Notes under the pieces: model-generated
Told to the model about the DNA's origin: nothing
The model's database searches: none
Seen by the model: the letters and a program-made list of their open reading frames with translations, nothing else
DNA from: an uncultured Chloroflexia bacterium
Lineage (GTDB): Bacteria > Chloroflexota > Anaerolineae > B4-G1 > SLSP01
Direction of reading: 5' to 3'
Assembly (NCBI GenBank): GCA_963751345.1
Contig: CAVVUS010000005.1
Location: forward strand, 1-11,855
Length of the DNA stretch: 11,855 nt
Part shown: positions 1 to 11,855 of the stretch, one piece after another
Layout: every line of letters starts with the position of its first letter
Position numbering within the stretch: the first letter of the stretch is position 1
Program-made: the position numbers and the translations under genes

Positions 1-29
1 CAGGCTCTGCATAGAGGAAGAAAGAGGAC

Positions 30-1229
30 GTGGCAGAGATTCGCCTGGAAGATGTCAGCAAGGTGTTCAAGTCCGGCACAGGTGGGCCAACATGGTCGGC
101 GGAAAGCGGACAACAGGGGATTTCGGCGCCGGCGACGGATCTCCCTGATTCCGGGGCGTCGGAGGATGTCCGTGCGCTCGACCACCTGAGCCTCGTGGTG
201 CCAGACGGCACCACGACCGTCGTCGTCGGCCCGTCAGGTTGCGGCAAGAGCACGCTGCTCAGAGTCGTCGCCGGCCTCACGGACTATGAGGGAACCGTCG
301 CCTACGATGGTCGCGACGTGTGCGGGGTCTCCCCCGGCGACCGCACCATCGGCATGGTCTTCCAAAGCTACGCCCTATACCCACATTTCCGCGGACGTGG
401 GAATCTCAGCTTCTTCTTCCAGGTGCATCACGCGCCGGATGCGGAGGCGGAGGAGCGCATTCGGGTGACCTCCGAGATGATGGGCATTGGATTCCAGGCG
501 CTCCTCAAGCGGAAGCCCGGCACCCTCTCCGGTGGACAGCAACAGCGGCTTGCCATAGCCCGTGCTTTGGTGCGACAACCTGAGCTTTTTCTCTTCGATG
601 AGCCCCTTTCGAACCTGGATGCCAAGCTGCGCGTCCGGACGCGCACGGAGATCAAGTGGTTGCTGCACAGATTTGGCATCACGGCGCTGTACGTCACGCA
701 CGACCAGACGGAAGCGATGGCCCTGGCTGACAGCATCGCGGTTATGCGAGCGGGCCGCATCGAGCAGGAGGGCAACTTCTGGCAGATACTGCAGGACCCG
801 ACGAATCTCTTCGTCGCCGGTTTTCTCGGCCAACCTCCGATGAACCTGATTGGCGCAGAGGTGTCCGGCGGCAGGTTCGTCATCGATCAGAGCCACGGCT
901 TTCCGATCCCGGCCGAGCTGGCTTCATCGGTGCACAACGGCCAGAGGATCACGATCGGCATCCGACCCGAGGCGGCTTCGGTCGTGCCGACCAACGATGG
1001 AGCCCCCGCTGCCGGGCCGACGTTCGTCGGCACCATAGACGTGGTGGAGCCCGATTTCGGCCGCCGGCAGCAGACGGCCTACGTCAGCGCCGGCGGCCTC
1101 GCGGTGAGCGTCCTAGCACCCCTGGACATGCGCCTCACTCAGGGCTATGACGTACGCGTGGTCCTCCCTGTGGAGGCGCTCTATTACTTCGATACAGATA
1201 GCGAACGGCGAATCGGACCCTCAGGTTAG
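30..1229 (+). CDS. Carbohydrate ABC transporter ATP-binding protein (MalK/UgpC/MsmX family)
   Basis: Walker A GPSGCGKST, Q-loop VFQSYALYPH, signature LSGGQQQR, Walker B FLFDEPLSNLD, H-switch YVTHDQ, then FVAGFLGQPPMN and GIRPE leading into a C-terminal TOBE-like region. A purine-rich RBS (GAGGA) precedes the GTG at 30. Confidence 0.93.
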   Translation: MAEIRLEDVSKVFKSGTGGPTWSAESGQQGISAPATDLPDSGASEDVRALDHLSLVVPDGTTTVVVGPSGCGKSTLLRVVAGLTDYEGTVAYDGRDVCGVSPGDRTIGMVFQSYALYPHFRGRGNLSFFFQVHHAPDAEAEERIRVTSEMMGIGFQALLKRKPGTLSGGQQQRLAIARALVRQPELFLFDEPLSNLDAKLRVRTRTEIKWLLHRFGITALYVTHDQTEAMALADSIAVMRAGRIEQEGNFWQILQDPTNLFVAGFLGQPPMNLIGAEVSGGRFVIDQSHGFPIPAELASSVHNGQRITIGIRPEAASVVPTNDGAPAAGPTFVGTIDVVEPDFGRRQQTAYVSAGGLAVSVLAPLDMRLTQGYDVRVVLPVEALYYFDTDSERRIGPSG

Positions 1230-1411
1230 CGTGCGGAGCAGCAGCCGAGTTGTACTACGCCATCCTGCATGACGTCGAGACGCACGGGATGGACATCTCC
1301 CATATGTACGCACGCCAGTCTCCCTCGCACGCGTCTCCCCAAACCAAGCGATCGTTTGCACCTTCTCCAATCGCACATCGCCCCCGCCAGACTACACCAC
1401 GGGCCACAGGC

Positions 1412-1420
1412 TGGTAGAAT
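1412..1420 (+). promoter_or_regulatory. Putative extended -10 promoter (TGgTAGAAT) for the 1521-5269 operon
   Basis: TG-n-TAGAAT lies in the intergenic region about 100 nt upstream of the 1521 start. No convincing -35. Confidence 0.45.
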
Positions 1421-1520
1421 ACGTAATCTCGTGGCAGGCGCGGTCAGTCAGCCGCTGTTTCATCTTTTCGGCCCAACAGCGGAACTAAGGCGGCAGTTCG
1501 GTGTTATGGAGGAGGTGAAT

Positions 1521-1979
1521 GTGAGCGACGTCCATAGCGACATTTGGCAGGCCCAAGCCACTCTAGCTCGGCAGCTCCTGCAATGGGGCCGCGTGAGCAT
1601 GGGTGCAGGCGCACTCATCCGCAGACTGCCCGACCGGTTCTATGCCGGCTTTGGGACGCAGGCCATCGGCTGGGGTGCCATCAACGCGACCATCGGCCGG
1701 CTTGGATTATCTCAGGCACGACGCCGATCCGGCGTCCCAGAAGTGCACACCCTACTCGAACAAAAGAGAGTCAGGTTGGCCCTGCGCCGGCTGCTGTGGA
1801 TCAACGTCGGTCTGGACGCCGGGTACGTTGCCGGCGGCCTCTCACTTGCCGCCAGAAAAGGACGCGGCAGTCGCTTCTCGAAGGGAACCGGATGGGGCAT
1901 CGCCGTTCAGGGCGCCTTCCTCCTGCTCTTTGATCTGGCCCACGCTCTGCTTATCGGTTCCGATCCGGAGGAGGCGTGA
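1521..1979 (+). CDS. Small membrane-associated hypothetical protein, DUF6992-like (152 aa)
   Basis: Strong RBS GGAGGTG (1511-1517) before the GTG at 1521, in frame with track ORF 1269..1979, whose upstream extension looks non-coding. Motifs Q-x-x-x-WGAI(N/D), LRRLLWINVGLDAGY and GWGIAVQGAFLLLFD resemble DUF6992 proteins (from memory, not searched). Confidence 0.65.
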   Translation: MSDVHSDIWQAQATLARQLLQWGRVSMGAGALIRRLPDRFYAGFGTQAIGWGAINATIGRLGLSQARRRSGVPEVHTLLEQKRVRLALRRLLWINVGLDAGYVAGGLSLAARKGRGSRFSKGTGWGIAVQGAFLLLFDLAHALLIGSDPEEA

Positions 1980-2995
1980 TGCTGCCGATCATCGCCAGCC
2001 AGATGTACCCCGAGGGCTACCACGGGCGCGGCCAGCGTCGGGCTTACTTCGAGGGTTGGTACTTCAAATTGGTGAATGCCGGCGGTCAGCACCGGTACGC
2101 GATCATACCCGGCATCTCATTGGGCGAACGTGGCGGCGGCCCACACAGCTTTGTCCAGGTACTGGACGGGGTCTCAGGCCAGACGGTCTACCGGCGATAC
2201 CCGGTGTCGGCGTTCTCCGCCCGGGAGCGGACACTCGACGTGCGTGTGGGCCCAAACCGGTTCTCCTGGCGAGGAATGGAACTTGACCTGCAGGAGACCG
2301 AAATTCCGCTCAAGGGTAACATTCGTTTCGACCGCCCCAAGCCATGGCCGGTGACCCTCGCATCGCCGGGCATTATGGGATGGTATGCCTGGGTCCCGCG
2401 TATGGAGTGCTACCACGGCGTCCTTAGCCTGGACCACGGTTTGAGTGGAAGCCTGAGCGCAGGATCGGCCACCTACGACTTCGGAAACGGACAGGGCTAC
2501 ATCGAGAAGGATTGGGGACAATCGTTCCCCTCCGGCTGGGTATGGACACAGTCCAACCACTTCAGCACGCCGGGCGTCTGTCTCACAGCCTCGATCGCGA
2601 TGATACCGTGGATCGGGCGAGCCTTCCCGGGGTTCATCATTGGCCTTTACCGCCGTGGCACACTGTACCGCTTCGCGACGTACACGGGAGCCAGGACAAC
2701 CCATCTGACCGTCGCCGACAACGCGATGCACTGGACTGTGGAGGACGCCCTCTATCGTCTCGAGATCGCGGGCCGCCGTGCGACGGTGGGCAGGCTGCGC
2801 GGGCCAAGCAAGGTCGACATGGGACGCCCTGTCCCCGAAACCCTCAGTGCCACCGTGGACGTGCGCATGGTCGCACGTCACACCGGGGCCACACTTTTCG
2901 AGGATACAGGCCGCTATGCGGGGATGGAGATCGGGGGGGATGTCGCCCCGCTGTTGACCACGCCGGCCCGGATGTCGGAATCCTCTGCATGGTAA
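1976..2995 (+). CDS. Tocopherol cyclase family protein
   Basis: YFEGWYFK, GIMGW, MECYHGVLSLDH and GYIEKDWGQSFPSGWVWTQSNHF are motifs typical of bacterial tocopherol-cyclase (VTE1-like) proteins. GGAGGAGG RBS at 1967-1974. The start is GTG 1976 or ATG 1979, and either overlaps the upstream TGA. Confidence 0.85.
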   Translation: MMLPIIASQMYPEGYHGRGQRRAYFEGWYFKLVNAGGQHRYAIIPGISLGERGGGPHSFVQVLDGVSGQTVYRRYPVSAFSARERTLDVRVGPNRFSWRGMELDLQETEIPLKGNIRFDRPKPWPVTLASPGIMGWYAWVPRMECYHGVLSLDHGLSGSLSAGSATYDFGNGQGYIEKDWGQSFPSGWVWTQSNHFSTPGVCLTASIAMIPWIGRAFPGFIIGLYRRGTLYRFATYTGARTTHLTVADNAMHWTVEDALYRLEIAGRRATVGRLRGPSKVDMGRPVPETLSATVDVRMVARHTGATLFEDTGRYAGMEIGGDVAPLLTTPARMSESSAW

Positions 2996-3771
2996 GCTGG
3001 CTCGCGGCCTTGCCCCAGCAGTTGACCCTGCCGGCCATCTATCTGATGATTGCCTGGCTTGCGGTGATGATCAGCCTCCCCACCCTCCAGGTACGTTGGG
3101 GAGAGAGAGCGCAGGTATGGTGCATCAACGCCGGCGTGCTACTTCAGGCCGCCACGGTAGTTGCCATCCTGATCCCCGCATGGGGTGTCGGGCCCTCGCT
3201 GCTCCTGCTTGTTTCCGTCGTGGTCCTGGCCTGGTCGGCGGAGTTCGTAGGCTTACACACGGGCTTCCCGTTCGGTAGGTATGCCTATACCGACCGGCTG
3301 CAGCCGCAGCTAGGCAAAGTGCCCGTGCAGATCCCGCTGGCGTGGCTGATGATGCTGCCTCCTGCGTGGGCGGTTGGCGGCGCGATCTCCGGCAGCCATC
3401 AAGGAGTGCTCTTCATCCTGGCGAGCGCGCTGGCGTTCACGGCCTGGGACCTGTTTCTGGACCCTCAGATGGTCGCATGGCACCTATGGACGTGGTCCGG
3501 GCCCGACGGTGAGCCGAAGCAAGGTGCAGGATTCTTCGGCGTTCCCTGGACCAACTACGCGGGATGGTTCGCCGTGTCCGCGCTTATGACGTGGGCGGTG
3601 GTCCAGATCATTCCATCCGCGGATACCCCGTGGGCAGCACTCAGCCTGATCTACGCACTCACCTGGCTGATGGAGAGTGTCGGACAAATCGTCATTTGGC
3701 CGCTCTACGGCCCTGCCATAGCCGGAGCCGTTGGGATGGGTCTCTGTCTTGTGGGGGCCATTATCATATGA
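2989..3771 (+). CDS. Carotenoid biosynthesis membrane protein (CruF-like carotenoid 1,2-hydratase family, PF04240-like), 260 aa
   Basis: Multi-TM hydrophobic protein with E-x-x-G-x-x-TGFPFGRYAY, VP-x-x-IPLAW, WDLFLDPQMV and FFGVPWTNYAGW motifs. The ATG at 2989 overlaps the cyclase stop. The track extension back to 2512 is a shadow of the cyclase gene. Confidence 0.85.
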   Translation: MVSWLAALPQQLTLPAIYLMIAWLAVMISLPTLQVRWGERAQVWCINAGVLLQAATVVAILIPAWGVGPSLLLLVSVVVLAWSAEFVGLHTGFPFGRYAYTDRLQPQLGKVPVQIPLAWLMMLPPAWAVGGAISGSHQGVLFILASALAFTAWDLFLDPQMVAWHLWTWSGPDGEPKQGAGFFGVPWTNYAGWFAVSALMTWAVVQIIPSADTPWAALSLIYALTWLMESVGQIVIWPLYGPAIAGAVGMGLCLVGAIII

Positions 3772-3784
3772 AAGGGAGTCAGCA

Positions 3785-5269
3785 TTGCATCGCATCGAAT
3801 TCGCCGATCTAACGCTGCGAGACGGGCAACAGAGCCTCGCAGCCACGAGGATGACCACGGCGCAGGCCACGGGCGTCCTCGACATCATCCGCCGCGTGGG
3901 CTACCAGGCTATTGAGCTTTGGGGCGGCGCGACATTGGACAGTTGTGTTCGCTTTCTCGACGAGGATCCCTGGGATCGCCTAGACGCGTTCCAGCGCGTG
4001 CTCCAGGAGCCCAAGAAACTACGGACGCTACTCAGGGGACAGAATCTCTTTGCCTACCAGCCCTTTCCCGACGATCTCGTGATCGCGTTCGTGCGAGAAG
4101 CGGTTCGTTCGGGCACAGGCCTCATACGCATCTTCGATGCGCTCAACGATTGGCGCAACCTCCAGATCGCGATGTTGGCCGTCAAAGCCTACGGGGGCGA
4201 GGTTGAGGCCGCCATGAGCTACACCGTCAGCCCCGTTCACACGACCGATTATTACGTGGCCCTTGGGCAGCGGCTGGAGGATGAGGGGGCGGATCGGGTC
4301 GTGGTGAAGGATATGGCGGGACTGCTGCGCCCTGCCGACGCCCTGGAGCTCTTTCATAGGCTCAAAGCTGCCCTCAAGGTACCGGTGGGCTTCCACGGGC
4401 ACACGACGACCGGACTTGCCACTCTGAATGCCGTGATTGCCATGCGGGAGGGGATCGACGTAATCGATACAGCGATCACACCCTTTGCCGGTGGCACCTC
4501 GCACCCGCCGGTAGAAGTCCTGATCGTTTTTGCAGAGGCCATGGGTATCGAGCACGGCCTCGACAAAGCGATGATCCTCAAGGCCCAGGCAGAGCTCTTC
4601 GATGCCTTCGAGCAGCTGGCACCTTTCATCTCAGATGACAACCGGACCCATCGCCCCATCTCGTATGCCGACGTCGACCGGCGGCGCGTCGACGAGATCC
4701 TGGCTTTGGTCGAAAAAGCTGAGGCGCAGGACTTGCGGCGCGCACGGGCGCTGATGCGTGACTTGCTTGGATCCCTGGGATACCCCGCTCACGATGACGA
4801 GATCCTCGACGCCCAGATCCCCGGCGGCATGCTGTCGAATCTCCACAACCAGCTGCAACAGATGGGGCAAGGGGCGCGGCTTGGCGAGATCCTAGAGGAG
4901 GTACCGCGGGTCCGCGCCGACGTCGGCTACGTTCCTCTCGTGACGCCCACCAGCCAAATCGTCGGCGCGCAGGCCACGTTCAACGTGATGATGGGGCGGT
5001 ACCAGATGGTCTCCAATGAGTTCAGGATGTTGTTGCGCGGTGAGTTTGGGCGAACGCCGGTGCCGGCAAATCCGGAGGTCGTACGCGAAGTTCTGGGCAG
5101 CGGCGAGGAGCCTATGCGCTACCGGCCCGCCTCCTACTTACACCCGGTGCTTGAGGACATCGCCATCGGCGATCTGCCGTTCATCAGGACCCAGCGGGAT
5201 TTGCTGCTCCACCTGATGCTAAAGCAGCCTGCCGACGAGTTTCTGTCGCGCAAATATGGGCTCTCGTAG
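3785..5269 (+). CDS. Pyruvate/oxaloacetate carboxyltransferase (PycB/OadA/transcarboxylase 5S-like; HMGL-like + PYC_OADA), no biotinyl domain, 494 aa
   Basis: Motifs DLTLRDGQQSL-x-ATRM, ELWGGAT, LLRGQNL, IRIFDALND, KDMAG, metal-binding H-x-H (FHGH), QIPGGMLSNL and PLVTPTSQIVG. TTG start at 3785 with GGGAG RBS at 3774-3778. No AMKM motif. Confidence 0.9.
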   Translation: MHRIEFADLTLRDGQQSLAATRMTTAQATGVLDIIRRVGYQAIELWGGATLDSCVRFLDEDPWDRLDAFQRVLQEPKKLRTLLRGQNLFAYQPFPDDLVIAFVREAVRSGTGLIRIFDALNDWRNLQIAMLAVKAYGGEVEAAMSYTVSPVHTTDYYVALGQRLEDEGADRVVVKDMAGLLRPADALELFHRLKAALKVPVGFHGHTTTGLATLNAVIAMREGIDVIDTAITPFAGGTSHPPVEVLIVFAEAMGIEHGLDKAMILKAQAELFDAFEQLAPFISDDNRTHRPISYADVDRRRVDEILALVEKAEAQDLRRARALMRDLLGSLGYPAHDDEILDAQIPGGMLSNLHNQLQQMGQGARLGEILEEVPRVRADVGYVPLVTPTSQIVGAQATFNVMMGRYQMVSNEFRMLLRGEFGRTPVPANPEVVREVLGSGEEPMRYRPASYLHPVLEDIAIGDLPFIRTQRDLLLHLMLKQPADEFLSRKYGLS

Positions 5270-5401
5270 AGACGCACCGGTGGCGCGTCTTCCTGGACGC
5301 CACGTGACCTGCGCACACAGTGATCCGGCCTGCGGTGTAGAACGCCGATCGGCGGTGGCTACGCTGCGTCCGCAAGACGGGGCGCCACCCCGTCTCTGCG
5401 A
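5264..5401. repeat. Cluster of GTAG-type REP-like palindromes (REPIN/BIME-like) between convergent genes
   Basis: GTAG-AGACGCACC-ggt-GGCGCGTCT (5266-5290). GTAG..CGCCGATCGGCG..CTAC (5337-5362). AGACGGGG-cgcca-CCCCGTCT-CTGC (5375-5399). The outer ends tcgtagagacg / cgtctctgcga are an inverted repeat matching at 10 of 11 positions. Confidence 0.5.
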
Positions 5402-5419
5402 CGGCCAGGGGCCGCGAGC

Positions 5420-6679
5420 TCAGTTGTTGGGCGTACCGAAGTCAGCGATGAAGTAATATCCAAAGCCGTTGCCCGGCACGACTCCCACCCCGACCTCTGT
5501 GAGGTAATCGCTCAGAATCGTCCGGCGATGGGGATCATTGGGAGGCGCCTCGTCCATCCACATGGCGACCGCGCGCTCCGCAGAACCGTACCAGGCCCAG
5601 CACTCCGACCATCGCACCGGGTCATACCCCTCGCGGATGATGCGGTCCCTATAACTTGAGCCATCCGAGCCGGTGTGTCCGCACCAACCCTGCGCCTCGC
5701 AATCATCGGCGTGCCGCTGTGCTGCGGAGGCAAGCGTGTCGTTCCACAGGAGCGCCGGAAGCCCGTAGGCGGCGCGCTGCTCGTTAAGCAGGCGGAAGAT
5801 CTCACCGGGTAGCGCGGCAAGATCCGGAGGCGGAGCAGGGGCACCCAGTTCGGGCGGCTCCGGTGCTTCCGTCGGGAGTGGATCGGGCGGAGCCTCGGGC
5901 ACTGCTGTCTCCTCGACGGCGGGCGGGTCGGCCTCCGCGTCCCCCTCAGTCACCGCGACAGAATTGGCCGCCAACAGGGATTCGGGCTCCGCCTGCGCGA
6001 CGGCTGCGAGCGTTGCTGTTGGTTCCGGAGCCGGTGCGACATCATCGGATGTGACGACGGACTTCGCGAGCAGATCAGCCGGAGAGCCGAGGGGGAGCAC
6101 GAGTTCCTGGCCCACCGAGATGAGATCTCCATCCAACGACGCGTTGGCGGCCTGCAGGTCACCCAAAGCCAGCCCATAGGCTGCAGCAATCTCACCCAGC
6201 GTCTCCCCGGATGTGACCTCATGCAGGATCCAGAACGGGGAGGCGTCGGGCCACGCCTGTGAGGGGGGGATCTCCAGCACCTGGTCCAGGCGCACCGTGG
6301 TGGCCTCTCCCAGATCGTTCTGCAATTGGACAGCGGCCATGGGCACATCGAACTGCATCGCGATGCCCAACAACGTGTCCCCCGGCTGCACCGTGTAGGA
6401 TGCTGCAGTCGCGATCTCGGCCGTGGGCTCTGCGGGCACCGCCGCCTCTGCCGGCGTCTCGACCGCGGTTGCGGCAGATGCACTCGCGGGATACGTCGGC
6501 GCCATCATTGGCTCGACCGCGACCGTGGGCGCCGCAGCCTGAAGCGCCCGCTCTTGCGGCACGGCATTCAGAGCGAGGCCAACCGGTTCAGTCGGCGTGG
6601 GAATTGGTGTTGAGGTCGTGGTCGCGCAAGCAGAGGCCGTAAGCATCACAAGCGCCAGGATGCACGCAGGGAGCTTCAC
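5420..6679 (-). CDS. Putative lipoprotein with two LysM domains and a C-terminal CAP (SCP) domain
   Basis: Signal peptide ending in a lipobox-like LTASAC, with Pro/Thr/Ala-rich linkers. LysM1 YTVQPGDTLLGIA...LEIP and LysM2 HEVTSGETLGEIA...GQELVLP. CAP domain LLNEQRAAYGL..L..N..L..AAQRHA..HTGSDGS..WM..HRRTIL..EVGVG. The start is GTG 6679 or GTG 6694. Confidence 0.85.
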   Translation of the reverse strand: MKLPACILALVMLTASACATTTSTPIPTPTEPVGLALNAVPQERALQAAAPTVAVEPMMAPTYPASASAATAVETPAEAAVPAEPTAEIATAASYTVQPGDTLLGIAMQFDVPMAAVQLQNDLGEATTVRLDQVLEIPPSQAWPDASPFWILHEVTSGETLGEIAAAYGLALGDLQAANASLDGDLISVGQELVLPLGSPADLLAKSVVTSDDVAPAPEPTATLAAVAQAEPESLLAANSVAVTEGDAEADPPAVEETAVPEAPPDPLPTEAPEPPELGAPAPPPDLAALPGEIFRLLNEQRAAYGLPALLWNDTLASAAQRHADDCEAQGWCGHTGSDGSSYRDRIIREGYDPVRWSECWAWYGSAERAVAMWMDEAPPNDPHRRTILSDYLTEVGVGVVPGNGFGYYFIADFGTPNN

Positions 6680-6762
6680 GCGGTGACCCTGCACCGGCGC
6701 ACTCGGCGTCGTACGCTCTGCCCCACCCGACCGTTGCTCATCGTTGCGCAGGACATAGGCCC

Positions 6763-6790
6763 ACTATACCCAGACAGCGGAGGAAGGCAA
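6763..6790 (-). promoter_or_regulatory. Putative sigma70-type promoter TTGCCT-16-TATAGT for the leftward (LysM-CAP) transcript
   Basis: -35 at 6790-6785 and -10 at 6768-6763. An ATG (6756) follows the -10 after 6 nt. Confidence 0.55.
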
Positions 6791-6801
6791 CTCACGGGTT
6801 G

Positions 6802-6829
6802 TTGTCTTTCCTGACGCGTTCCTTACAAT
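6802..6829 (+). promoter_or_regulatory. Putative sigma70-type promoter TTGTCT-16-TACAAT giving a leaderless rnhA transcript
   Basis: -35 at 6802-6807 and -10 at 6824-6829. The rnhA ATG at 6836 follows after 6 nt and there is no Shine-Dalgarno sequence. Confidence 0.6.
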
Positions 6830-6835
6830 ACGCCT

Positions 6836-7309
6836 ATGAACAGAAAACACGTGATCGCCTACACCGATGGCAGCGCGCTCGGGAACCCCGGACCGGGCGG
6901 CTACGGTGTCATCCTCCAGCACGGGGACTACGAAAGAGAACTATCCGGCGGGTTCCGGCACACAACCAACAATCGGATGGAGATTCTGGCAGCCATCGAG
7001 GCGCTGAAAGCCCTAAAGGAACCCTGTCAGGTGACCCTGCACACGGACTCGCAGTATCTGGTGAACGCGATGACCAAGGGCTGGGCGGAACGGTGGCGCG
7101 CCAACGGCTGGATGCGCAACAAGAAAGAGCCCGCGCTCAACCCCGATCTCTGGGAGGAACTGCTCCGTCTATGCAAAGTGCACCAGGTGGCCTTTGTCTG
7201 GGTTCGTGGCCACGCGGGGAATCACCGGAACGAACGATGTGACGTCCTGGCGAAGGAGGCCGCTCAACAGCCGGATCTCCCGCCGGATGTCGGATACAAG
7301 CAAGGGTGA
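6836..7309 (+). CDS. rnhA: Ribonuclease HI
   Basis: [33 protein letters not shown] and WVRGHAG-x-x-x-NERCD-x-LA. All four catalytic acidic residues (D, E, D, D) and the His are present. Confidence 0.97.
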
Positions 7310-7311
7310 TG

Positions 7312-7354
7312 GCCTTCCGGGAAGCTGTGCGTGCCGCACAGCTTCCCGGAAGGC
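7312..7354. repeat. Perfect 20-bp inverted repeat (hairpin) immediately after rnhA
   Basis: GCCTTCCGGGAAGCTGTGCG-tgc-CGCACAGCTTCCCGGAAGGC. No U-tract directly follows. Confidence 0.8.
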
Positions 7355-7397
7355 TCCGATTGGTTTTCCAGAAGATCATCAAGGAGAGGAACCCCAT

Positions 7398-8147
7398 ATG
7401 CCAGATAACAAGAGCGATCGTGAGTCTCTGAAAAGCAAGCTATGGTCAGAGTTCGGGAGGATGGGCACCGACCAGCAGAAGCGCCTCCCCCATCCCCCGT
7501 TGGAGCAGCCGTTCGCTGCCGACCTGCCGCAGGTTGAGCTCGTGCCGCCGGACAAGTTCTCGGTCGGAACATTGTCGGTTCGCGAGGCCATCGCGCGCCG
7601 GCAAAGCCACCGCGCATATGCCGAGGAATCGCTGACGTTGGAGGAGCTCTCCTATCTCGTCTGGGCCACCCAGGGCGTCCACGGGACGTGGCGCGGCGGC
7701 GGTGCGCTACGCCGCACCGTCCCCTCAGCCGGCGCGCGCCACCCGTTTGAGACCTATCTGGTCGTCAACCGCGTCGAAGGATTGGAGACCGGTCTCTACC
7801 GCTATCTCTCGGTAGAGCACCGGCTGCTGCAGCTCGAGTTGGACCCGGAACTGCCGATGATGGCAGCGGCAGCCTGCAACGGTCAGACATTCATTGCGGC
7901 GACCGCCGTCACCTTCATCTGGACGGCGGTGCCCTACCGGACGGAGTGGCGTTACGGGGCGATGGCACCGAAGTTCGTCAGCATCGACGCCGGACACGTC
8001 TGCCAGAACCTCTATCTGGCTGCCGAGTCCATCGGCGCGGGTGTCTGCGCCATCGCCGCATACAACCAGAGCGAGTTGGACGCGCTGCTCGGCGTGGACG
8101 GGGAGGATGAGTTCGCCATCTACGTCGCGCCCGTGGGGAAGGTGTAG
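7398..8147 (+). CDS. SagB/ThcOx-family FMN-dependent dehydrogenase (nitroreductase superfamily), 249 aa
   Basis: AIARRQSHRAY, L-x-LEELS-x-L-x-WATQG, RTVPSAGARHPFETY, GLYRY, RTEWRYG and DAGHVCQNLYLAAE. RBS AAGGAGAGG before the ATG at 7398. The track extension to 7194 overlaps rnhA and the hairpin and is spurious. Confidence 0.9.
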   Translation: MPDNKSDRESLKSKLWSEFGRMGTDQQKRLPHPPLEQPFAADLPQVELVPPDKFSVGTLSVREAIARRQSHRAYAEESLTLEELSYLVWATQGVHGTWRGGGALRRTVPSAGARHPFETYLVVNRVEGLETGLYRYLSVEHRLLQLELDPELPMMAAAACNGQTFIAATAVTFIWTAVPYRTEWRYGAMAPKFVSIDAGHVCQNLYLAAESIGAGVCAIAAYNQSELDALLGVDGEDEFAIYVAPVGKV

Positions 8148-8151
8148 TCAG

Positions 8152-8187
8152 AAAAGACTGGACCAATCTCGGAAGATTGGTCCAGTC
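8152..8187 (-). terminator. Intrinsic terminator for fbaB, possibly bidirectional
   Basis: 14-bp perfect stem GACTGGACCAATCT / AGATTGGTCCAGTC with a 4-nt loop (8156-8187), followed by TTTT on the minus strand. It lies between convergent genes. Confidence 0.75.
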
Positions 8188-8207
8188 GCTTAGCCATGCA
8201 GGGATCG

Positions 8208-9284
8208 CTAGGCGATCGTTACCTCATCACAGAGATAGACATCCTGGATGGCGTTGAGCACCTCTACCCCCTGATCCATCGGCTTCTGGAAGGCCTTCCG
8301 CCCGCTGATCAGGCCTGTGCCTCCAGCGCGCTTATTGATGACCGCGGTGCGCACGGCCTGGACCAGGTCATTATCGCCCGAGGCGCCGCCTGAGTTGATG
8401 AGGCCGGAGCGCCCCATGTAGCAGTTGGCGAGCTGATAACGACAGAGATCGATGGGATGATCGGTCGTGAGCTCGGTATAGACCCGCTTGTCGATCTTGC
8501 CGTAGCTCGACTCACCCATGTTGAGCGCGGTGTAACCGCCGTTGAGTTCGGGCTGCTTCTGCTTGATGATGTCGGCCTCAATAGTCACGCCCAGGTGATT
8601 AGCCTGACCCGTCAGATCGGCGCTGACCGCGTAGTCTTTGCCGTCGCGCTTGAACGCGGAGTTCCGCAGATAGCACCAGAGCACCGTCGCCATACCCAGC
8701 TCGTGCGCTTTGTGGAAGGCCTTGCTCACATCCACGATCTGGCGTGCGGACTCTTCCGAACCGAAGTAGATCGTCGCGCCCACGGCGACGGCGCCCATAT
8801 CGAAGGCCTGGTCAATCTGAGCGAAGAAGATCTGGTCGAAGTGATTGGGATAGGTGAGCAGTTCGTTATGGTTGAACTTGACGATGAAGGGGATCTTGTG
8901 GGCGTACTTCCGGGCGCATGCGCCCAGGACCCCGAGCGTCGATGCGACCGCGTTGCAGCCCCCCGCCATCGCGAGTTCGACGATGTACGCGGGATCGAAG
9001 TAGATAGGGTTCGGCGCGAACGAGGCGCCGGCCGAGTGCTCGATGCCCTGATCAACGGGCAGGATGGACAGATAGCCGGTCCCGCCCAGGCGACCATGGT
9101 CGAAAAGGCTTTGGAGATTGCGCAGTACGGGTGTGGGCCGGTCGCTCAGCGCCACCACCCGGTCAACAAAATCGGGTCCCGGCAGATGCAGTTGCTCCTT
9201 GAGAATCGTCTCACACTTGTGCCCCAACAGCGAATCGGCCTCACTGCCCAACAGGTCCTGAATACCGGCGAATGTCATTGCCAT
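8208..9284 (-). CDS. fbaB: Fructose-bisphosphate aldolase class I (DhnA/FbaB type)
   Basis: [64 protein letters not shown] (Schiff-base Lys) and INKRAGG[11 protein letters not shown]. RBS GGGAGG. Confidence 0.96.
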
Positions 9285-9332
9285 TTTGTGCCTCCCGGCA
9301 GATAAGTGTGCCCTACAGCTTGTATGTCTGCT

Positions 9333-9361
9333 ATCTTAGTCCCCAATGATGGACTCAGCAA
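9333..9361 (-). promoter_or_regulatory. Putative internal promoter for fbaB (TTGCTG-17-TAAGAT)
   Basis: -35 at 9361-9356 and -10 at 9338-9333, within the 83-nt gap upstream of fbaB. Confidence 0.4.
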
Positions 9362-9367
9362 CCGATC

Positions 9368-10522
9368 TCACCCGATGCGATGGTCCTCGATATAGTCCCA
9401 ATCGATGTCGTATCCCATCCCCGGACCCTGGGGCACACTCACATAGCCCTGGTCGTCCATCGGATCGCATAACGTCTTGAGGTAGGGAGGGGGCGTGTTG
9501 CAGTCGACGCCGGGAGCGAGGAGCCCGCGCTCGTAATACTCGCACGTGTCCTCGCTCGTGGCCCCCAGGATCTGAAGGTTGCCGAAGCCACTCATGTGGA
9601 TCTCGCACCTGATACCGTACGCCTCGGCAACCGAGACCATCTTCTTGACGCCGGTGATCCCGCCGCGCAGGACGTCGATGCGCGTCATGTCCGAGGCGTC
9701 CCGCATGATCCAGTCGGCCCGTGTGTAGAGGCTGCCCTCCGCGATTTCCGGGGAGAGAATCGGGATGTCGAGCTCGCGCGCCAGTTTCTCATAGGCGTGG
9801 ACGCGATATTCGGGCATCGGATGCTCGTACCAGGCGAAATCCAGCTTCTCCAGCTCACGCCCTACCCACAGGGCCTCCTCATAGGTGCAGTAAGTGCCCC
9901 ACGGATCGAACATCAGTACCATGTCGTCACCGACGGCCTCCCTCACGGCGACACACGCCTCGACGTCGGCCTTGACGTGAGAGGGTCGCCCAGGGGTCGG
10001 CTCAAACGTCTTGGGGTCAGCGAAGTAATAGGGATGGATCTTGTACGCGTGATAGCCTTGTTTCCGGCAGGCGAGCGCGTGTGCGGCGTACTCCTCGGGA
10101 GTGCCCATATTGGGATAGGTGCTCGCGTAAGCCTTGACCTTGTCTCGACAACCGCCCAGGAGTTTGTAGATCGGGACACCAAAGTGCCGCGCCTGAAGAT
10201 CCCAGAGCGCCATATCAAGGGTGCTGAGGATATTCTCGGGGGTCTTGGAGACCCACATCCAGTGCCAGAACTTCTCGCGATCGAAGGGATCCTCTCCGAT
10301 CAACATCGAGCGAGCCTTCCCGAGGAGCGCAGCACGTTGATCCGGCAGCAGGCCGTCGCGGTCGCCGTGCCCGGACCCGCCGAAGTAGTAGCCCTCAGCG
10401 CCCTCATCGGTCGCGATCTTGGTCAGCGTCTGGAGCGTCGTGCCCTCCGTGATGAGCTCTCGGTTACGGAAAGCCTCACGCGGCACCTCAAAGGCAATGA
10501 CAGACACATCGGTGATTCTCAT
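9368..10522 (-). CDS. Mandelate racemase/muconate lactonizing enzyme family protein (enolase superfamily, probable acid-sugar dehydratase)
   Basis: N-terminal capping domain with TDEG-x-EG, LDMALWDL and PIYKLLGG..KVKAYAS. Metal ligands D (MFDPW), E (WYEHP) and E (SPEI), plus a C-terminal PQGPGMG. RBS AGGAGGTG. Confidence 0.9.
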   Translation of the reverse strand: MRITDVSVIAFEVPREAFRNRELITEGTTLQTLTKIATDEGAEGYYFGGSGHGDRDGLLPDQRAALLGKARSMLIGEDPFDREKFWHWMWVSKTPENILSTLDMALWDLQARHFGVPIYKLLGGCRDKVKAYASTYPNMGTPEEYAAHALACRKQGYHAYKIHPYYFADPKTFEPTPGRPSHVKADVEACVAVREAVGDDMVLMFDPWGTYCTYEEALWVGRELEKLDFAWYEHPMPEYRVHAYEKLARELDIPILSPEIAEGSLYTRADWIMRDASDMTRIDVLRGGITGVKKMVSVAEAYGIRCEIHMSGFGNLQILGATSEDTCEYYERGLLAPGVDCNTPPPYLKTLCDPMDDQGYVSVPQGPGMGYDIDWDYIEDHRIG

Positions 10523-10551
10523 CCCACACCTCCTGCGGTACTACGCGGTCG

Positions 10552-11604
10552 TTAGGGAACCAACAGCACCTTCGCGACCTTACCCGGGTCGCCGACGAGG
10601 CGTTCGAACCAGGCCCGCCCATCGCCCAGCGGTGCCTCTGTCGCCCATGGCCCGATGGCTATCACGCCCTCATCCAGAAGTGAGATCGCCTGGCTGACGT
10701 CCGACGGTGTGTAGCAGAAGCTGCCCTGGACGGTGATCTCGCCGCGGATGATGTCCGCCGCCGGCATGGCGCTCGTCTCCTCATGGAGGCCGCTCAACAG
10801 GACGAGGCCCGCTCGCTCGGTCGCCGAAACGCACTGCCTGCGCGTGACGGCCTTGCCGACCGCATCCAGGGCGCGACTCACGCCTTGGCCGCCCGTCTGG
10901 TCACGGACGTATGCGACGACATCCATCCGGGTGGGATCCATCGCGTTCGCGCCGAGGTCGCCCGCCATCGCCAGTCGCGCTGGGTTCGTATCTGAGACAA
11001 AGACACGCCCTGCACCCCGGTGCAGAAGGACCTGCAGCGTCAGCAGGCCGATCGTACCGGCGCCGACGATGAGGACGTCCCGGCCTTCGACCTCACCCAT
11101 CAACGCTGCGATGCGCACCGCGCAGGCCGTCGGCTCGGTCAGTGCCCCCGTTCGGAGGTCCATGGCGTCTGGTAGGGCGAAGACCATATGGGCCGGGGCG
11201 GCGACAAACTCGGCGAAAGCGCCGGGCCGGTGGGCACCGATCAGACTCCGGTGCAGGCACAGATGCTGGCGTCCTTCCCGGCAATACCGGCAGGTCCCAT
11301 CGTAGACCATTGGATCCACCGTCACCTTAGCGCCTACGGCCAGGTTGGGGTAGCCCGTCCGCACTTCGTCGCCGACTGCAGCAATACGGCCCGAGAACTC
11401 GTGACCCATAATCAGCGGGGGCACGCGCAGCGCATTGTGGCCCAGGTAGCCGCTCAGTTCGGACCCGCAGATGCCACAGTACGCGACCTCGACCAGCACC
11501 TCGTCGGGAGCCGCCGATGGCACCGGCTCATCGTGCAGGCTCATCTCGCGAGGCCCTTCCCAGACCAAGGCCTTCATCGTCTCTCGACGGAGCACATCAG
11601 ACAT
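10552..11604 (-). CDS. Zinc-dependent medium-chain dehydrogenase (sorbitol/galactitol-1-P/L-threonine dehydrogenase-like)
   Basis: CGICGSE, GHEFSG, structural-zinc loop D-x-x-C-x-x-C-x7-C, GAFAEF, LTEP and the Rossmann motif GAGTIG. RBS AAGGAGG before the ATG at 11604. Confidence 0.92.
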   Translation of the reverse strand: MSDVLRRETMKALVWEGPREMSLHDEPVPSAAPDEVLVEVAYCGICGSELSGYLGHNALRVPPLIMGHEFSGRIAAVGDEVRTGYPNLAVGAKVTVDPMVYDGTCRYCREGRQHLCLHRSLIGAHRPGAFAEFVAAPAHMVFALPDAMDLRTGALTEPTACAVRIAALMGEVEGRDVLIVGAGTIGLLTLQVLLHRGAGRVFVSDTNPARLAMAGDLGANAMDPTRMDVVAYVRDQTGGQGVSRALDAVGKAVTRRQCVSATERAGLVLLSGLHEETSAMPAADIIRGEITVQGSFCYTPSDVSQAISLLDEGVIAIGPWATEAPLGDGRAWFERLVGDPGKVAKVLLVP

Positions 11605-11640
11605 CGCGGCCTCCTTATCTTCGGTAGCTGTGTAGCGCCG

Positions 11641-11669
11641 ATTATGGAGAGGGGCGGGTACTTTGTCAA
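11641..11669 (-). promoter_or_regulatory. Near-consensus sigma70 promoter TTGACA-17-CATAAT for the dehydrogenase/enolase-family operon
   Basis: Perfect -35 (11669-11664), 17-nt spacer, and -10 CATAAT (11646-11641) about 36 nt upstream of the ATG. Confidence 0.75.
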
Positions 11670-11855
11670 GATTCGCGTAGGTGGACGACGCAGGCGGTAG
11701 AGCGGGCGAGATCCTGAGGCCGCGCTCAGGACAGGCTGCACGCGGTCCGAAATCGTACGCGTTCCCCCGGACCTCTGGAGTGACCGTTCAGGGTACCCTC
11801 CGTGGGACGTGGGCTACAACCCGGCACAACAGAAGCGCCCAAGACCTACGACACG

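What the first reader, a model, noticed from the sequence alone, without database searches (positions are those of the whole stretch)
1521..3771. Translationally coupled DUF6992-like / tocopherol cyclase-like / CruF-like module: candidate uncharacterised isoprenoid-lipid modification system
Seen in sequence: three genes with overlapping stop/start codons (GTGATG at 1976-1981; ATGGTAA at 2989-2995). Established: CruF-family proteins hydrate the terminal prenyl double bond of carotenoids, and tocopherol cyclase (VTE1) closes a chromanol ring on prenyl-quinols. Bacterial cyclase homologues outside phototrophs are largely uncharacterised. No phytoene synthase or desaturase, HPPD or homogentisate prenyltransferase gene lies in the window. 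Inference: two enzymes acting on prenyl double bonds plus a small membrane protein may form a module that modifies or salvages a membrane isoprenoid (carotenoid, quinone or other polyprenyl lipid). This would also give the DUF a functional context.
Basis: partly seen in the sequence, partly recalled or inferred. Interest (0 to 1): 0.7.

Follow-up and report, generated by a model that had tools for sequence, protein, structure and literature searches.

The report
Leftover core of a carotenoid cluster
The three coupled genes are what remains of a carotenoid pigment gene cluster whose backbone genes were deleted, which links bacterial tocopherol-cyclase-like proteins and DUF6992, both of unknown function, to carotenoid tailoring.

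Summary
DUF6992 (1521-1979), a tocopherol-cyclase-family protein (1979-2995) and a CruF-family membrane protein (2989-3771) all pass Pfam cut-offs, and their stop and start codons overlap as described.

It is not a free-standing lipid system. All 12 related loci that hold the three genes also carry carotenoid genes. The nearest one reads ABC ATPase, crtB, crtY, DUF6992, TC-like, cruF, PlsY-like acyltransferase, GT2, crtD, OadA-like. The window keeps both flanks and the trio, and a 37-codon relic of crtB lies at 1211-1321. No phytoene synthase, CrtI, lycopene cyclase, MenA, MqnA or HPPD was found in the 93%-complete genome.

The trio is still under purifying selection (dN/dS 0.12-0.27 against a 95%-identical second copy).

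The TC-like model has the AttH, kievitone-hydratase and Diels-Alderase fold (Z 20-22) and both tocopherol-cyclase motifs. In two other genomes the gene sits in a crtI-crtB-TC-crtYcd operon with no CruF.

Best reading: this is a surviving carotenoid psi-end tailoring module. TC-like would add an O-H group across a prenyl-type double bond after protonating it. Its reaction, and its substrate in this genome, are unknown.

The parts
30..1229 (+). ABC transporter ATPase (MalK/UgpC-like). This is the conserved left flank of the cluster.
   Evidence: PF00005 104.6 bits and PF17912. It is 65% identical over 397 residues to the ABC ATPase that precedes crtB in L001.
1211..1321 (+). Relic of the C-terminal part of phytoene synthase (crtB), about 37 codons, in a frame of its own. 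It overlaps the end of the ABC gene.
   Evidence: tblastn with L001 PSY residues 261-290 gives 63% identity, E 4.7e-7. Three of 5 further PSYs hit the same place at E 1.4e-4 to 2e-3, and an HMM built from those 5 gives i-E 1.6e-4 at 1217-1300. The same relic is in the C11 copy, where 4 of 5 PSYs hit. Pfam found nothing in the 67-residue piece at E 1e-5.
1521..1979 (+). DUF6992 small membrane protein (152 aa; alternative ATG start at 1506).
   Evidence: PF22503 93.3 bits. It is 45% identical to the L001 homologue. In relatives the gene is next to crtB or fused to an alpha/beta hydrolase.
1979..2995 (+). Tocopherol-cyclase-family protein (338 aa), soluble, with an AttH-like double beta-barrel.
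   Evidence: PF14249 81.7 bits. Motifs YIEKDWG and FPSGWVWTQSNHF are present, matching YxEKNWG and FP+xWxW+QxNxF of PMC4963081. Model pLDDT 87.3. Z 20-22.5 to CghA, Fsa2, AttH 2ich and kievitone hydratase. It falls in a clade of crt-linked genes, SH-aLRT 96.
2989..3771 (+). CruF-family integral membrane protein (260 aa, 8 predicted helices), of the crt-cluster-linked subtype.
   Evidence: PF04240 119.6 bits. The NCBIfam CruF equivalogs score below their cut-offs. It is 52% identical to the L001 CruF. Model pLDDT 93.1.
3785..5269 (+). Oxaloacetate decarboxylase alpha / pyruvate carboxylase B-like carboxyltransferase. This is the conserved right flank and is probably co-transcribed.
   Evidence: NF006761 496.8 bits. 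It is 75% identical over 213 residues to the gene that follows crtD in L001.

Best explanation
The trio is the surviving core of a carotenoid gene cluster typical of Anaerolineae-type Chloroflexota. The usual order is crtI, crtB, lycopene cyclase, DUF6992, (alpha/beta hydrolase), TC-like, cruF, PlsY-like acyltransferase, GT2 glycosyltransferase, crtD-like. In this lineage, deletions removed crtB (a 37-codon relic remains), the cyclase, and the acyltransferase, glycosyltransferase and desaturase genes. DUF6992, TC-like and CruF were left between unchanged flanks. Shown: the synteny, the relic, the family and fold assignments, and purifying selection on the trio. Inferred: the three proteins tailor the open (psi) end of a carotenoid. 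CruF would be the membrane 1,2-hydratase. TC-like would be a soluble AttH-fold acid-base enzyme that protonates a trisubstituted prenyl-type C=C and adds an O-H group, either water or a neighbouring hydroxyl, to the tertiary carbon, as CrtC, kievitone hydratase and tocopherol cyclase do. DUF6992 would be a membrane partner or anchor for the ester-forming or ester-hydrolysing step. No backbone genes were found in this genome, so the module either works on carotenoids taken from neighbours or depends on genes in the unassembled 7%.
For: Families. Synteny: L001 reads ABC, PSY, CrtY (PF05834), DUF6992, TC, CruF, PF02660, GT2, CrtD-like (TIGR02734 414.8 bits), HMGL-like. The window proteins match ABC at 65%, DUF at 45%, TC at 67%, CruF at 52% and OadA at 75%. 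crtB relic. All 12 trio-bearing loci have further crt-type genes. The fullest order is seen in L020, L044 and L060. In the 251-genome class sample PSY is present in 17 of 17 other DUF6992 genomes, 22 of 30 strong-TC genomes and 44 of 74 PF04240 genomes, against 91 of 251 overall. DUF6992 lies directly next to PSY in G211 and G040. TC sits inside a crtI-crtB-TC-crtYcd operon in L050 and L039, whose genomes have no PF04240, no PF07143 and no close CruC-type GT2. Fold: Z 22.5 CghA, 21.0 AttH 2ich, 20.5 kievitone hydratase, 17.4 25-phosphosteroid lyase, then a drop to 7.7. AttH-family enzymes hydrate isoprene double bonds to tertiary alcohols (passages of bioRxiv 10.1101/2025.10.20.683597). Selection: dN/dS is 0.27 for DUF, 0.12 for TC and 0.13 for CruF against the C11 copy, which shares the same deletions. 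A third intact TC allele exists. CruF alone is a 1,2-hydratase in E. coli (PMC13704108 section 3.5).
Against: No biochemical data exist for TC-like or DUF6992. The own genome shows no PSY. Its best CrtI-family hit is 76.3 bits against a cut-off of 238.1. It has no PF18916 and no PF05834 over the cut-off. An endogenous carotenoid substrate is therefore not evident. TC-like genes also occur in genomes without PSY: 8 of 30 in the sample, plus Flexilinea flocculi TC1 and Calditrichales MX18-03. Fifty-six of 80 TC loci have no crt-type neighbour within 5 kb. The C11 copy of TC carries five 1-base insertions. CruF works without a TC-like partner in Chloroflexus, so the role of TC-like is not defined by any known gap in the pathway. 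The NCBIfam CruF equivalog cut-offs are not reached.
Confidence: 0.58

Rival explanations
1. The trio is a non-functional leftover. After the loss of crtB it has no substrate and is decaying. It looks intact only because too little time has passed.
For: There is a crtB relic, and five flanking cluster genes are gone. No carotenoid or quinone pathway was found in the genome. The second copy on C11 has five uncompensated-looking 1-base insertions in TC, and its PF14249 hit drops to 43.5 bits in a 248-aa frame.
Against: Both copies share the deletions, so the loss came before their split. Since then TC has taken 48.5 synonymous against 20.5 non-synonymous changes (dN/dS 0.12), with CruF at 0.13 and DUF at 0.27, values like those of the housekeeping neighbours. 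The window copy and a third allele (P0001) are full-length. Single-base indels also break the MR_MLE and ADH genes on C11, so the insertions may be assembly errors.
Confidence: 0.17
2. TC-like is a true chromanol-forming cyclase acting on a prenylquinol such as menaquinol. It would make an antioxidant that is co-regulated with carotenoids in a light or oxidative-stress regulon. Its place in crt clusters would then reflect shared regulation, not a shared substrate.
For: It is a Pfam tocopherol cyclase family member with both signature motifs. TC-like genes lie beside photolyase (5 loci), heliorhodopsin (3 loci) and an ECF sigma/anti-sigma pair in Saprospiraceae. Others lie beside a UbiE-like methyltransferase (L072) and a VKOR-family gene (G199). 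The gene occurs in PSY-less genomes.
Against: The own genome has no MenA and no MqnA-family gene, and its best HPPD hit is 31.3 bits against a cut-off of 277. TC is packed inside crtI-crtB-TC-crtYcd operons. Its stop codon overlaps the CruF start in 7 of 11 adjacent pairs.
Confidence: 0.1
3. The trio has been re-used for a non-carotenoid polyprenyl lipid, for example a polyprenol or polyprenyl phosphate.
For: Purifying selection continues without any detected carotenoid or quinone pathway. PF04240 proteins are common in PSY-less genomes: 30 of 74, including the closed genome G013. AttH-like hydratases also act on archaeal membrane lipids.
Against: The PF04240 proteins of PSY-less genomes are a divergent, stand-alone subtype (HMM E 1e-34 to 1e-40, against 1e-98 or better for the cluster type). 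The window's CruF belongs to the cluster type. Nothing in the window points to another lipid pathway.
Confidence: 0.1

Closest known systems
CruF-CruC-CruD psi-end pathway of Chloroflexus aurantiacus, which makes OH-gamma-carotene glucoside ester (PMC13704108: abstract and sections 3.2 and 3.5 read)
   Same: The CruF-family membrane hydratase is shared. In relatives it is followed by an acyltransferase-type gene and a GT2, and cruD-cruF are also adjacent in Chloroflexus. The phylum is the same.
   Different: The window has lost the acyltransferase, glycosyltransferase, crtB and cyclase genes. The Anaerolineae-type clusters add TC-like, DUF6992 and often an alpha/beta hydrolase, none of which is part of the tested Chloroflexus pathway. 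That the PlsY-family gene equals CruD is my recollection and was not verified here (one search found no statement).
Thermomicrobium roseum carotenoid cluster trd_1158-trd_1167 (PMC2615216: passages read)
   Same: It is a Chloroflexota cluster with crtB, crtI, CruF joined to an acyltransferase, and CruC. It also holds conserved hypothetical proteins whose role is open; the authors suggest these might introduce the 2,2'-hydroxyls.
   Different: I could not check whether trd_1160 or trd_1167 are TC-like or DUF6992. T. roseum keeps the whole cluster and is pigmented.
Tocopherol cyclase VTE1 / Slr1737 (PMC4963081: passages read)
   Same: It shares the Pfam family PF14249, the YxEK[N/D]WG motif and the neighbouring FP.xWxW.QxNxF motif. 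The likely chemistry is shared too: protonation of a trisubstituted prenyl double bond and O-H addition.
   Different: There is no homogentisate or prenylquinol pathway in this genome. Only the C-terminal half of the profile aligns strongly. The genomic partners are carotenoid genes. The 2016 paper lists such bacterial proteins as 'of unknown function'.
AttH-fold hydratases and relatives: CrtC carotenoid 1,2-hydratase, kievitone hydratase (7a0q), hydroxy-GDGT synthase Hgs, 25-phosphosteroid lyase, fungal decalin-forming Diels-Alderases (CghA, Fsa2, Phm7)
   Same: They share the two-barrel fold over 260-290 residues, Z 17-22.5. Their substrates are terminal isoprene units or polyenes, and the hydratases form tertiary alcohols.
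   Different: Sequence identity is 8-16%. No sequence-profile match to one CrtC-like protein was found. The catalytic residues were not mapped.

Membership tests
Tocopherol cyclase family (Pfam PF14249) | Profile HMM score over the curated cut-off | tested here: met
   81.7 bits against a cut-off of 26.6. The best stretch covers profile positions 145-335 of 335.
Tocopherol cyclase family (Pfam PF14249) | Conserved motifs YxEKNWG and FP+xWxW+QxNxF, as proposed in PMC4963081 | tested here: met
   The window protein has YIEKDWG (N replaced by D) followed by FPSGWVWTQSNHF. Y174, E176, K177, D178, W179, G180, F183, P184, W189, N193, H194 and F195 are invariant in 20 homologues. The motifs come from the paper's passages.
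Tocopherol cyclase (enzyme function, chromanol formation) | A prenylquinol substrate pathway in the same genome (HPPD plus homogentisate prenyltransferase, or a menaquinone pathway) | tested here: not met
   MenA gave 0 matches. MqnA-family PF02621 gave 0 matches. The best HPPD hit is 31.3 bits against a cut-off of 277. The genome is 93.4% complete.
Tocopherol cyclase (enzyme function, chromanol formation) | Chromanol ring closure shown by assay | not testable with these tools
   This needs an enzyme assay.
CruF carotenoid 1,2-hydratase (PF04240 / NCBIfam equivalogs) | Pfam family score over the cut-off | tested here: met
   119.6 bits against a cut-off of 25, profile positions 6-203 of 209.
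CruF carotenoid 1,2-hydratase (PF04240 / NCBIfam equivalogs) | Score over an equivalog cut-off (TIGR03460, NF045693, NF041333) | tested here: not met
   97.9 against 154.7, 66 against 400, and 62 against 300.
CruF carotenoid 1,2-hydratase (PF04240 / NCBIfam equivalogs) | Lies in a genome or cluster that makes a carotenoid with a psi-end | tested here: not met
   In relatives this is met: 12 of 12 trio loci have crt genes. In the own genome it is not: no PSY, CrtI or cyclase, only a crtB relic.
AttH-like fold superfamily (CrtC, kievitone hydratase, Hgs) | Two-barrel AttH fold over most of the protein | tested here: met
   2ich Z 21.0 (267 aligned, rmsd 4.0). 7a0q Z 20.5 (261 aligned, rmsd 3.5). 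The next unrelated row is Z 7.7. Foldseek E-values are 2.5e-9 to 4e-8.
AttH-like fold superfamily (CrtC, kievitone hydratase, Hgs) | Sequence-level homology to CrtC and its His/Trp/Tyr/Asp catalytic residues | tested here: inconclusive
   hhalign of A1 against one CrtC-like protein gave probability 1%. The residues named in PMC4717167 were not mapped onto the model.
DUF6992 (PF22503) | Profile HMM score over the cut-off, whole domain | tested here: met
   93.3 bits against a cut-off of 27, profile positions 2-122 of 122.
Complete carotenoid biosynthetic gene cluster | Intact crtB and crtI with a cyclase at the locus | tested here: not met
   Only a 37-codon crtB relic is present. L001's CrtY, PlsY-like, GT2 and CrtD find nothing in the window at E below 0.1.

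The most novel reading that the evidence does not exclude
Bacterial tocopherol-cyclase-like proteins, listed as of unknown function since 2016, are a new family of carotenoid-tailoring enzymes. They would be AttH-fold hydratases or ether-forming cyclases acting on the psi-end, and DUF6992 would be their membrane partner. In this carotenoid-less and quinone-less anaerobe the DUF6992/TC-like/CruF trio is kept under selection to modify carotenoids or other isoprenoids scavenged from neighbouring organisms.
Probability: 0.3. Interest if true: 0.7.

Novelty: new variant of a known kind. Interest (0 to 1): 0.48.

Why it matters
Bacterial 'tocopherol cyclase-like' proteins form a very large family. 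More than 7,300 proteins scored E <= 0.001 among the 8,000 candidates examined. No function has been assigned to them; a 2016 study said their function 'deserves further study'. DUF6992 does not appear in any paper of the held library.

This work places both families in conserved carotenoid operons, including a minimal crtI-crtB-TC-crtYcd operon. That makes the question directly testable in carotenoid-producing E. coli.

The window adds a case of cluster decay in which the tailoring genes outlive the backbone genes under purifying selection. This raises the possibility that a non-pigmented anaerobe processes carotenoids it does not make. As a locus on its own, though, it is a degenerate remnant of a known kind of cluster.

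Tried and rejected
Complex prediction (CruF alignment A2 with TC alignment A1 as partner) gave no verdict, score 0.02 against a mark of 0.32. It says nothing either way.

A sequence search of the PDB with the TC profile found nothing better than E 0.27.

hhalign of A1 against one CrtC-like protein from G268 found no relation.

Foldseek of the CruF model found no match at E <= 0.001. The best was the mycobacterial Insig homologue MvINS at E 0.077.

Pfam on the 67-residue relic piece found nothing at E 1e-5. The relic therefore rests on tblastn and my own HMM.

The promoter and terminator scan of 1-5600 gave no more sites than shuffled sequence.

The look-up of sequencing runs listed no RNA holder, only two DNA runs with small word shares.

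Paper searches that found nothing relevant: 'DUF6992', 0 papers. 'tocopherol cyclase' with 'cruF', 0 papers. 'tocopherol cyclase' with 'carotenoid' and 'Chloroflexi', 1 unrelated paper. 'Anaerolineae' with 'cruF', 2 papers seen in the listing only, both on Herpetosiphonaceae genomes. One search was badly posed and uninformative.

Ideas dropped:
- TC-like as the missing lycopene cyclase. The clusters already carry CrtY or CrtYcd.
- TC-like needing the CruF-made hydroxyl as its nucleophile. This is weakened because G256 and G257 have TC in the crt operon but no PF04240.
- The TC genes of the two same-family genomes (G062, G199) being syntenic remnants. They are not; the only match to the window is TC itself, at 51-54% identity.
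Full report
OBSERVATION. The window carries three tightly packed plus-strand genes.
- DUF6992 runs from a GTG at 1521, preceded by AGGAGG, to a TGA at 1977-1979. An in-frame ATG at 1506 is an alternative start.
- A 338-aa gene starts at the ATG at 1979, which shares one base with that stop.
- A 260-aa gene starts at the ATG at 2989, which lies 7 bases inside the end of the previous gene (ATGGTAA at 2989-2995).

Pfam places them over its cut-offs:
- PF22503 DUF6992, 93.3 bits.
- PF14249 Tocopherol_cycl, 81.7 bits; the best stretch covers profile positions 145-335.
- PF04240 Caroten_synth, 119.6 bits.

The NCBIfam CruF equivalogs score well below their cut-offs, and NCBIfam has nothing for the other two proteins. 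An OadA / pyruvate-carboxylase-B-like gene follows 14 bases after the CruF stop. An ABC ATPase lies upstream.

THE CONTIG. The window is the whole contig C5 of a 49-contig genome that is 93.4% complete and 5.6% contaminated.
- It is collinear with and 95.4% identical to C11:339187-351070 of the same assembly. Two close variants of the locus are therefore binned together.
- In the C11 copy DUF6992 and CruF are intact, but TC carries five 1-base insertions.
- Single-base indels also break two other genes on C11.
- A third, full-length TC allele exists in another assembly (P0001: 325 of 338 identical to the window).
- I therefore cannot say whether the insertions are real.
- Pairwise dN/dS between the copies is 0.27 for DUF, 0.12 for TC and 0.13 for CruF. 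That is within the range of the neighbouring housekeeping genes, 0.05-0.29.

NEIGHBOURHOODS IN OTHER GENOMES. The TC-like family is large: 7,307 proteins had E <= 0.001 among the 8,000 candidates scored. A scan of one genome per species matched 601 stretches, of which 589 were confirmed, and the best 80 loci were kept.

By record title these 80 come from Chloroflexota, Bacteroidota, Actinomycetota, Calditrichota, Rhodothermales, Latescibacterota, Ignavibacteriota and one Halioglobus.

Within 5 kb of TC:
- DUF6992 occurs in 15 of 80 loci.
- The CruF type occurs in 15 of 80.
- All three genes occur together in 12 of 80.

Searching the same loci with crt proteins taken from relatives found crt-type neighbours in 24 of 80, all Chloroflexota.
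- Nineteen have PSY, a strong CrtI, the GT2, the PlsY-like gene or CrtYcd.
- The other five have only DUF6992, a hydrolase or a weak amine-oxidase hit.
- All 12 trio loci are among the 24.
- The fullest order, in L020, L044 and L060, is CrtI, PSY, CrtYcd, DUF6992, alpha/beta hydrolase, TC, CruF, PlsY-like, GT2, CrtD-like, HDAC-like.

TC is immediately followed by CruF in 11 loci, and in 7 of these an ATG overlaps the TC stop. The remaining 56 of 80 TC loci have no crt-type neighbour.

THE NEAREST RELATIVE AND THE RELIC. L001 has a TC 67% identical to the window's. Its gene order is CitMHS transporter, ABC ATPase, PSY, CrtY-type cyclase, DUF6992, TC, CruF, PF02660 (PlsY family, below the PlsY equivalog cut-off), GT2, CrtD-like, HMGL/OadA-like.

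The window matches its ABC (65%), DUF (45%), TC (67%), CruF (52%) and OadA (75%). Nothing matches CrtY, the PlsY-like gene, GT2 or CrtD.

L001's PSY residues 261-290 match window 1214-1303 at 63% identity, E 4.7e-7.
- Three of five other PSYs hit the same place.
- An HMM of those five gives i-E 1.6e-4.
- The C11 copy has the same relic.

The locus is therefore an in-place reduction of a crt cluster. The 5' 260 codons of crtB, the cyclase, and the three genes after cruF were deleted before the two variants diverged.

On a quick maximum-likelihood tree the window's TC sits with L001, L002, L003 and L006, all crt-linked, with SH-aLRT 96.
- The tree has 79 rows. Two truncated rows with under 280 aligned residues were dropped.
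- The careful search did not finish.
- crt-linked and stand-alone TC genes are interspersed elsewhere on the tree.

GENOME-LEVEL CO-OCCURRENCE. In 251 genomes of the same class, own genome included, matches at E <= 0.001 were:

| Family | Genomes with a match | Over cut-off |
|---|---|---|
| DUF6992 | 20 | 18 |
| PF04240 | 74 | 72 |
| PF14249 | 37 | 35 (30 strong) |
| PSY | 91 | 90 |

PSY is present in:
- 17 of 17 other DUF6992 genomes.
- 22 of 30 strong-TC genomes.
- 44 of 74 PF04240 genomes.
- 69 of the 221 genomes without a strong TC.

Related genomes are not independent, so the Fisher values overstate the association.

Positions of the genes:
- DUF6992 lies directly beside PSY in G211 and G040.
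- It lies within a few kb of PSY in G009, G056, G064, G115, G165, G042 and G237.
- In G237, G042 and G064 it is fused to an alpha/beta hydrolase that keeps the HGFGGTP, GYSMG, Asp and His motifs.
- In G211, G009 and G056 a separate hydrolase gene lies in the same cluster, directly beside DUF6992 only in G211.

Among 15 TC-positive genomes of other phyla, PSY is in 13, PF04240 in 10 and CrtC in 1.

RESULTS THAT CUT THE OTHER WAY.
- The own genome has no PSY.
- It has no CrtI-family hit over the cut-off; the best is 76.3 bits against 238.1.
- It has no CrtYcd-type cyclase and no CrtY-type cyclase over the cut-off.
- It also lacks MenA and MqnA.
- Its best HPPD hit is 31.3 bits against a cut-off of 277.
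- Eight of 30 strong-TC genomes in the sample lack PSY. These include both other members of the own family, whose TC genes are not syntenic with the window.
- Flexilinea flocculi TC1 and Calditrichales MX18-03 have TC but no PSY.
- Thirty of 74 PF04240 genomes lack PSY. In eight that I fetched, the gene stands alone and is a divergent subtype, with HMM E 1e-34 to 1e-40 against 1e-98 or better for cluster-type genes. The window's CruF is of the cluster type.

WHAT TC-LIKE IS. It has no signal peptide and no strong hydrophobic segment.

The AlphaFold model (pLDDT 87.3) is a two-barrel beta protein. VIA-align scores:

| Structure | Z |
|---|---|
| CghA | 22.5 |
| Fsa2 | 22.1 |
| AttH 2ich | 21.0 |
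| Kievitone hydratase | 20.5 |
| 25-phosphosteroid lyase | 17.4 |
| Next, unrelated row | 7.7 |

Foldseek agrees.

From the literature:
- The AttH family includes CrtC carotenoid 1,2-hydratase and kievitone hydratase. [quoted passage not shown] It also includes a hydroxy-GDGT synthase (bioRxiv 10.1101/2025.10.20.683597, passages; PMC4717167, passages).
- The window protein carries both motifs proposed for true tocopherol cyclases, YxEKNWG (here YIEKDWG) and FP+xWxW+QxNxF. That paper already noted such bacterial proteins as being of unknown function (PMC4963081, passages). These residues are invariant in 20 homologues.

The mechanism class is therefore well supported: acid-catalysed addition of an O-H group across a trisubstituted prenyl-type double bond. 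The substrate and the nucleophile are inferred.

The most telling context is L050 and L039. There TC lies between crtB and crtYcd, in genomes without PF04240, PF07143 or a close CruC-type GT2. In those genomes TC-like is the only candidate tailoring enzyme of a carotene operon. That favours water addition or ring or ether formation on a carotene itself. It argues against a need for the CruF-made hydroxyl.

WHAT CruF AND DUF6992 ARE.
- The CruF model (pLDDT 93.1) has eight helices and no solved relative at E <= 0.001.
- Chloroflexus CruF alone hydrates gamma-carotene and lycopene in E. coli. CruC and CruD then glucosylate and acylate the product, and cruD-cruF are adjacent in that genome (PMC13704108, abstract and sections 3.2 and 3.5).
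- In Thermomicrobium roseum CruF is fused to an acyltransferase. Its cluster holds two conserved hypothetical proteins, and the enzyme for the 2,2'-hydroxyls is unassigned (PMC2615216, passages).
- DUF6992 has four glycine-rich hydrophobic stretches with invariant Trp, Gln, Asn, Asp and His residues.
- Its fusion to a catalytically complete serine hydrolase and its place beside GT2 genes suggest a membrane partner for an acyl-transfer or esterase step. This is inference.

VERDICT. The trio is the remnant core of a known kind of cluster.

What is new:
- TC-like proteins and DUF6992 are conserved members of Chloroflexota carotenoid operons. I found no paper in the held library saying so.
- The tailoring trio persists under selection after the backbone genes were lost.

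The exact reaction of TC-like, and the substrate in this organism, remain open.

Noticed in passing
window 1-11855 and G000:C11:339187-351070 (L114): The whole window is a second copy of a stretch of contig C11, 95.4% identical and collinear. This is probably a co-binned strain variant. The C11 copy has single-base indels that break TC (5), the MR_MLE gene (2) and the ADH gene (1).
   Followed up: partly
L103:9806-11083 (-), L107:4279-5625 (-), L111:7077-8387 (+): DUF6992 is fused at its C-terminus to an alpha/beta hydrolase (PF12146/PF00561) that keeps the HGFGGTP, GYSMG, Asp and His motifs. In other clusters a separate hydrolase gene lies close by.
   Followed up: partly
L118-L125 (for example G013:C1:3022246-3022809): A divergent, stand-alone PF04240 subtype occurs in genomes without any phytoene synthase: 30 of 74 PF04240 genomes in the sample, including a closed genome. 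One family has 7 of 8 genomes with PF04240 and 0 of 8 with PSY. Its function cannot be carotenoid hydration of an endogenous pigment.
   Followed up: partly
L005, L007, L008, L009, L034; L009, L024, L028; L049, L052, L062, L065: Stand-alone TC-like genes lie beside DNA photolyase (5 loci), heliorhodopsin (3 loci) or an ECF sigma factor (4 loci). An RskA-type anti-sigma gene lies beside the sigma gene in 3 of those 4 (L049, L052, L065). These are all light- or stress-linked contexts.
   Followed up: no
L116:1421-2524 (-) and L072:5989-6870 (+): A VKOR-family gene lies directly upstream of TC in G199. UbiE/COQ5-like methyltransferase genes follow TC in a Latescibacterota genome. These are hints of a quinone link in some lineages.
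   Followed up: no
L050:8693-9553 (+): A DUF92 (PF01940) membrane protein lies 2.7 kb downstream of TC in the crtI-crtB-TC-crtYcd locus. From memory, plant phytyl-phosphate kinase VTE6 belongs to this family; this was not checked.
   Followed up: no
L020, L044, L060, L102, L104 (cluster ends): An Ldh/Mdh-like gene and a histone-deacetylase-family gene recur inside or at the end of the Anaerolineae carotenoid clusters. Their role there is unknown.
   Followed up: no
window 5420-6694 (-): A secreted-type protein with LysM repeats and a CAP domain is the most divergent gene between the two copies (7.1 mismatches per 100 bases, 16 indel events, several of them multiples of three).
   Followed up: no
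window 7194-8147 (+): This is a SagB-family dehydrogenase (TIGR03605, 119 bits). No cyclodehydratase or precursor gene was recognised in the window. The long ORF overlaps the RNase HI gene, so its true start is probably later.
   Followed up: no
CruF model m04d72b6ebb3e (window 2989-3771): The best, non-significant, structural neighbour of the CruF model is the mycobacterial Insig homologue MvINS (Foldseek E 0.077, probability 0.99, TM 0.32-0.42).
   Followed up: no
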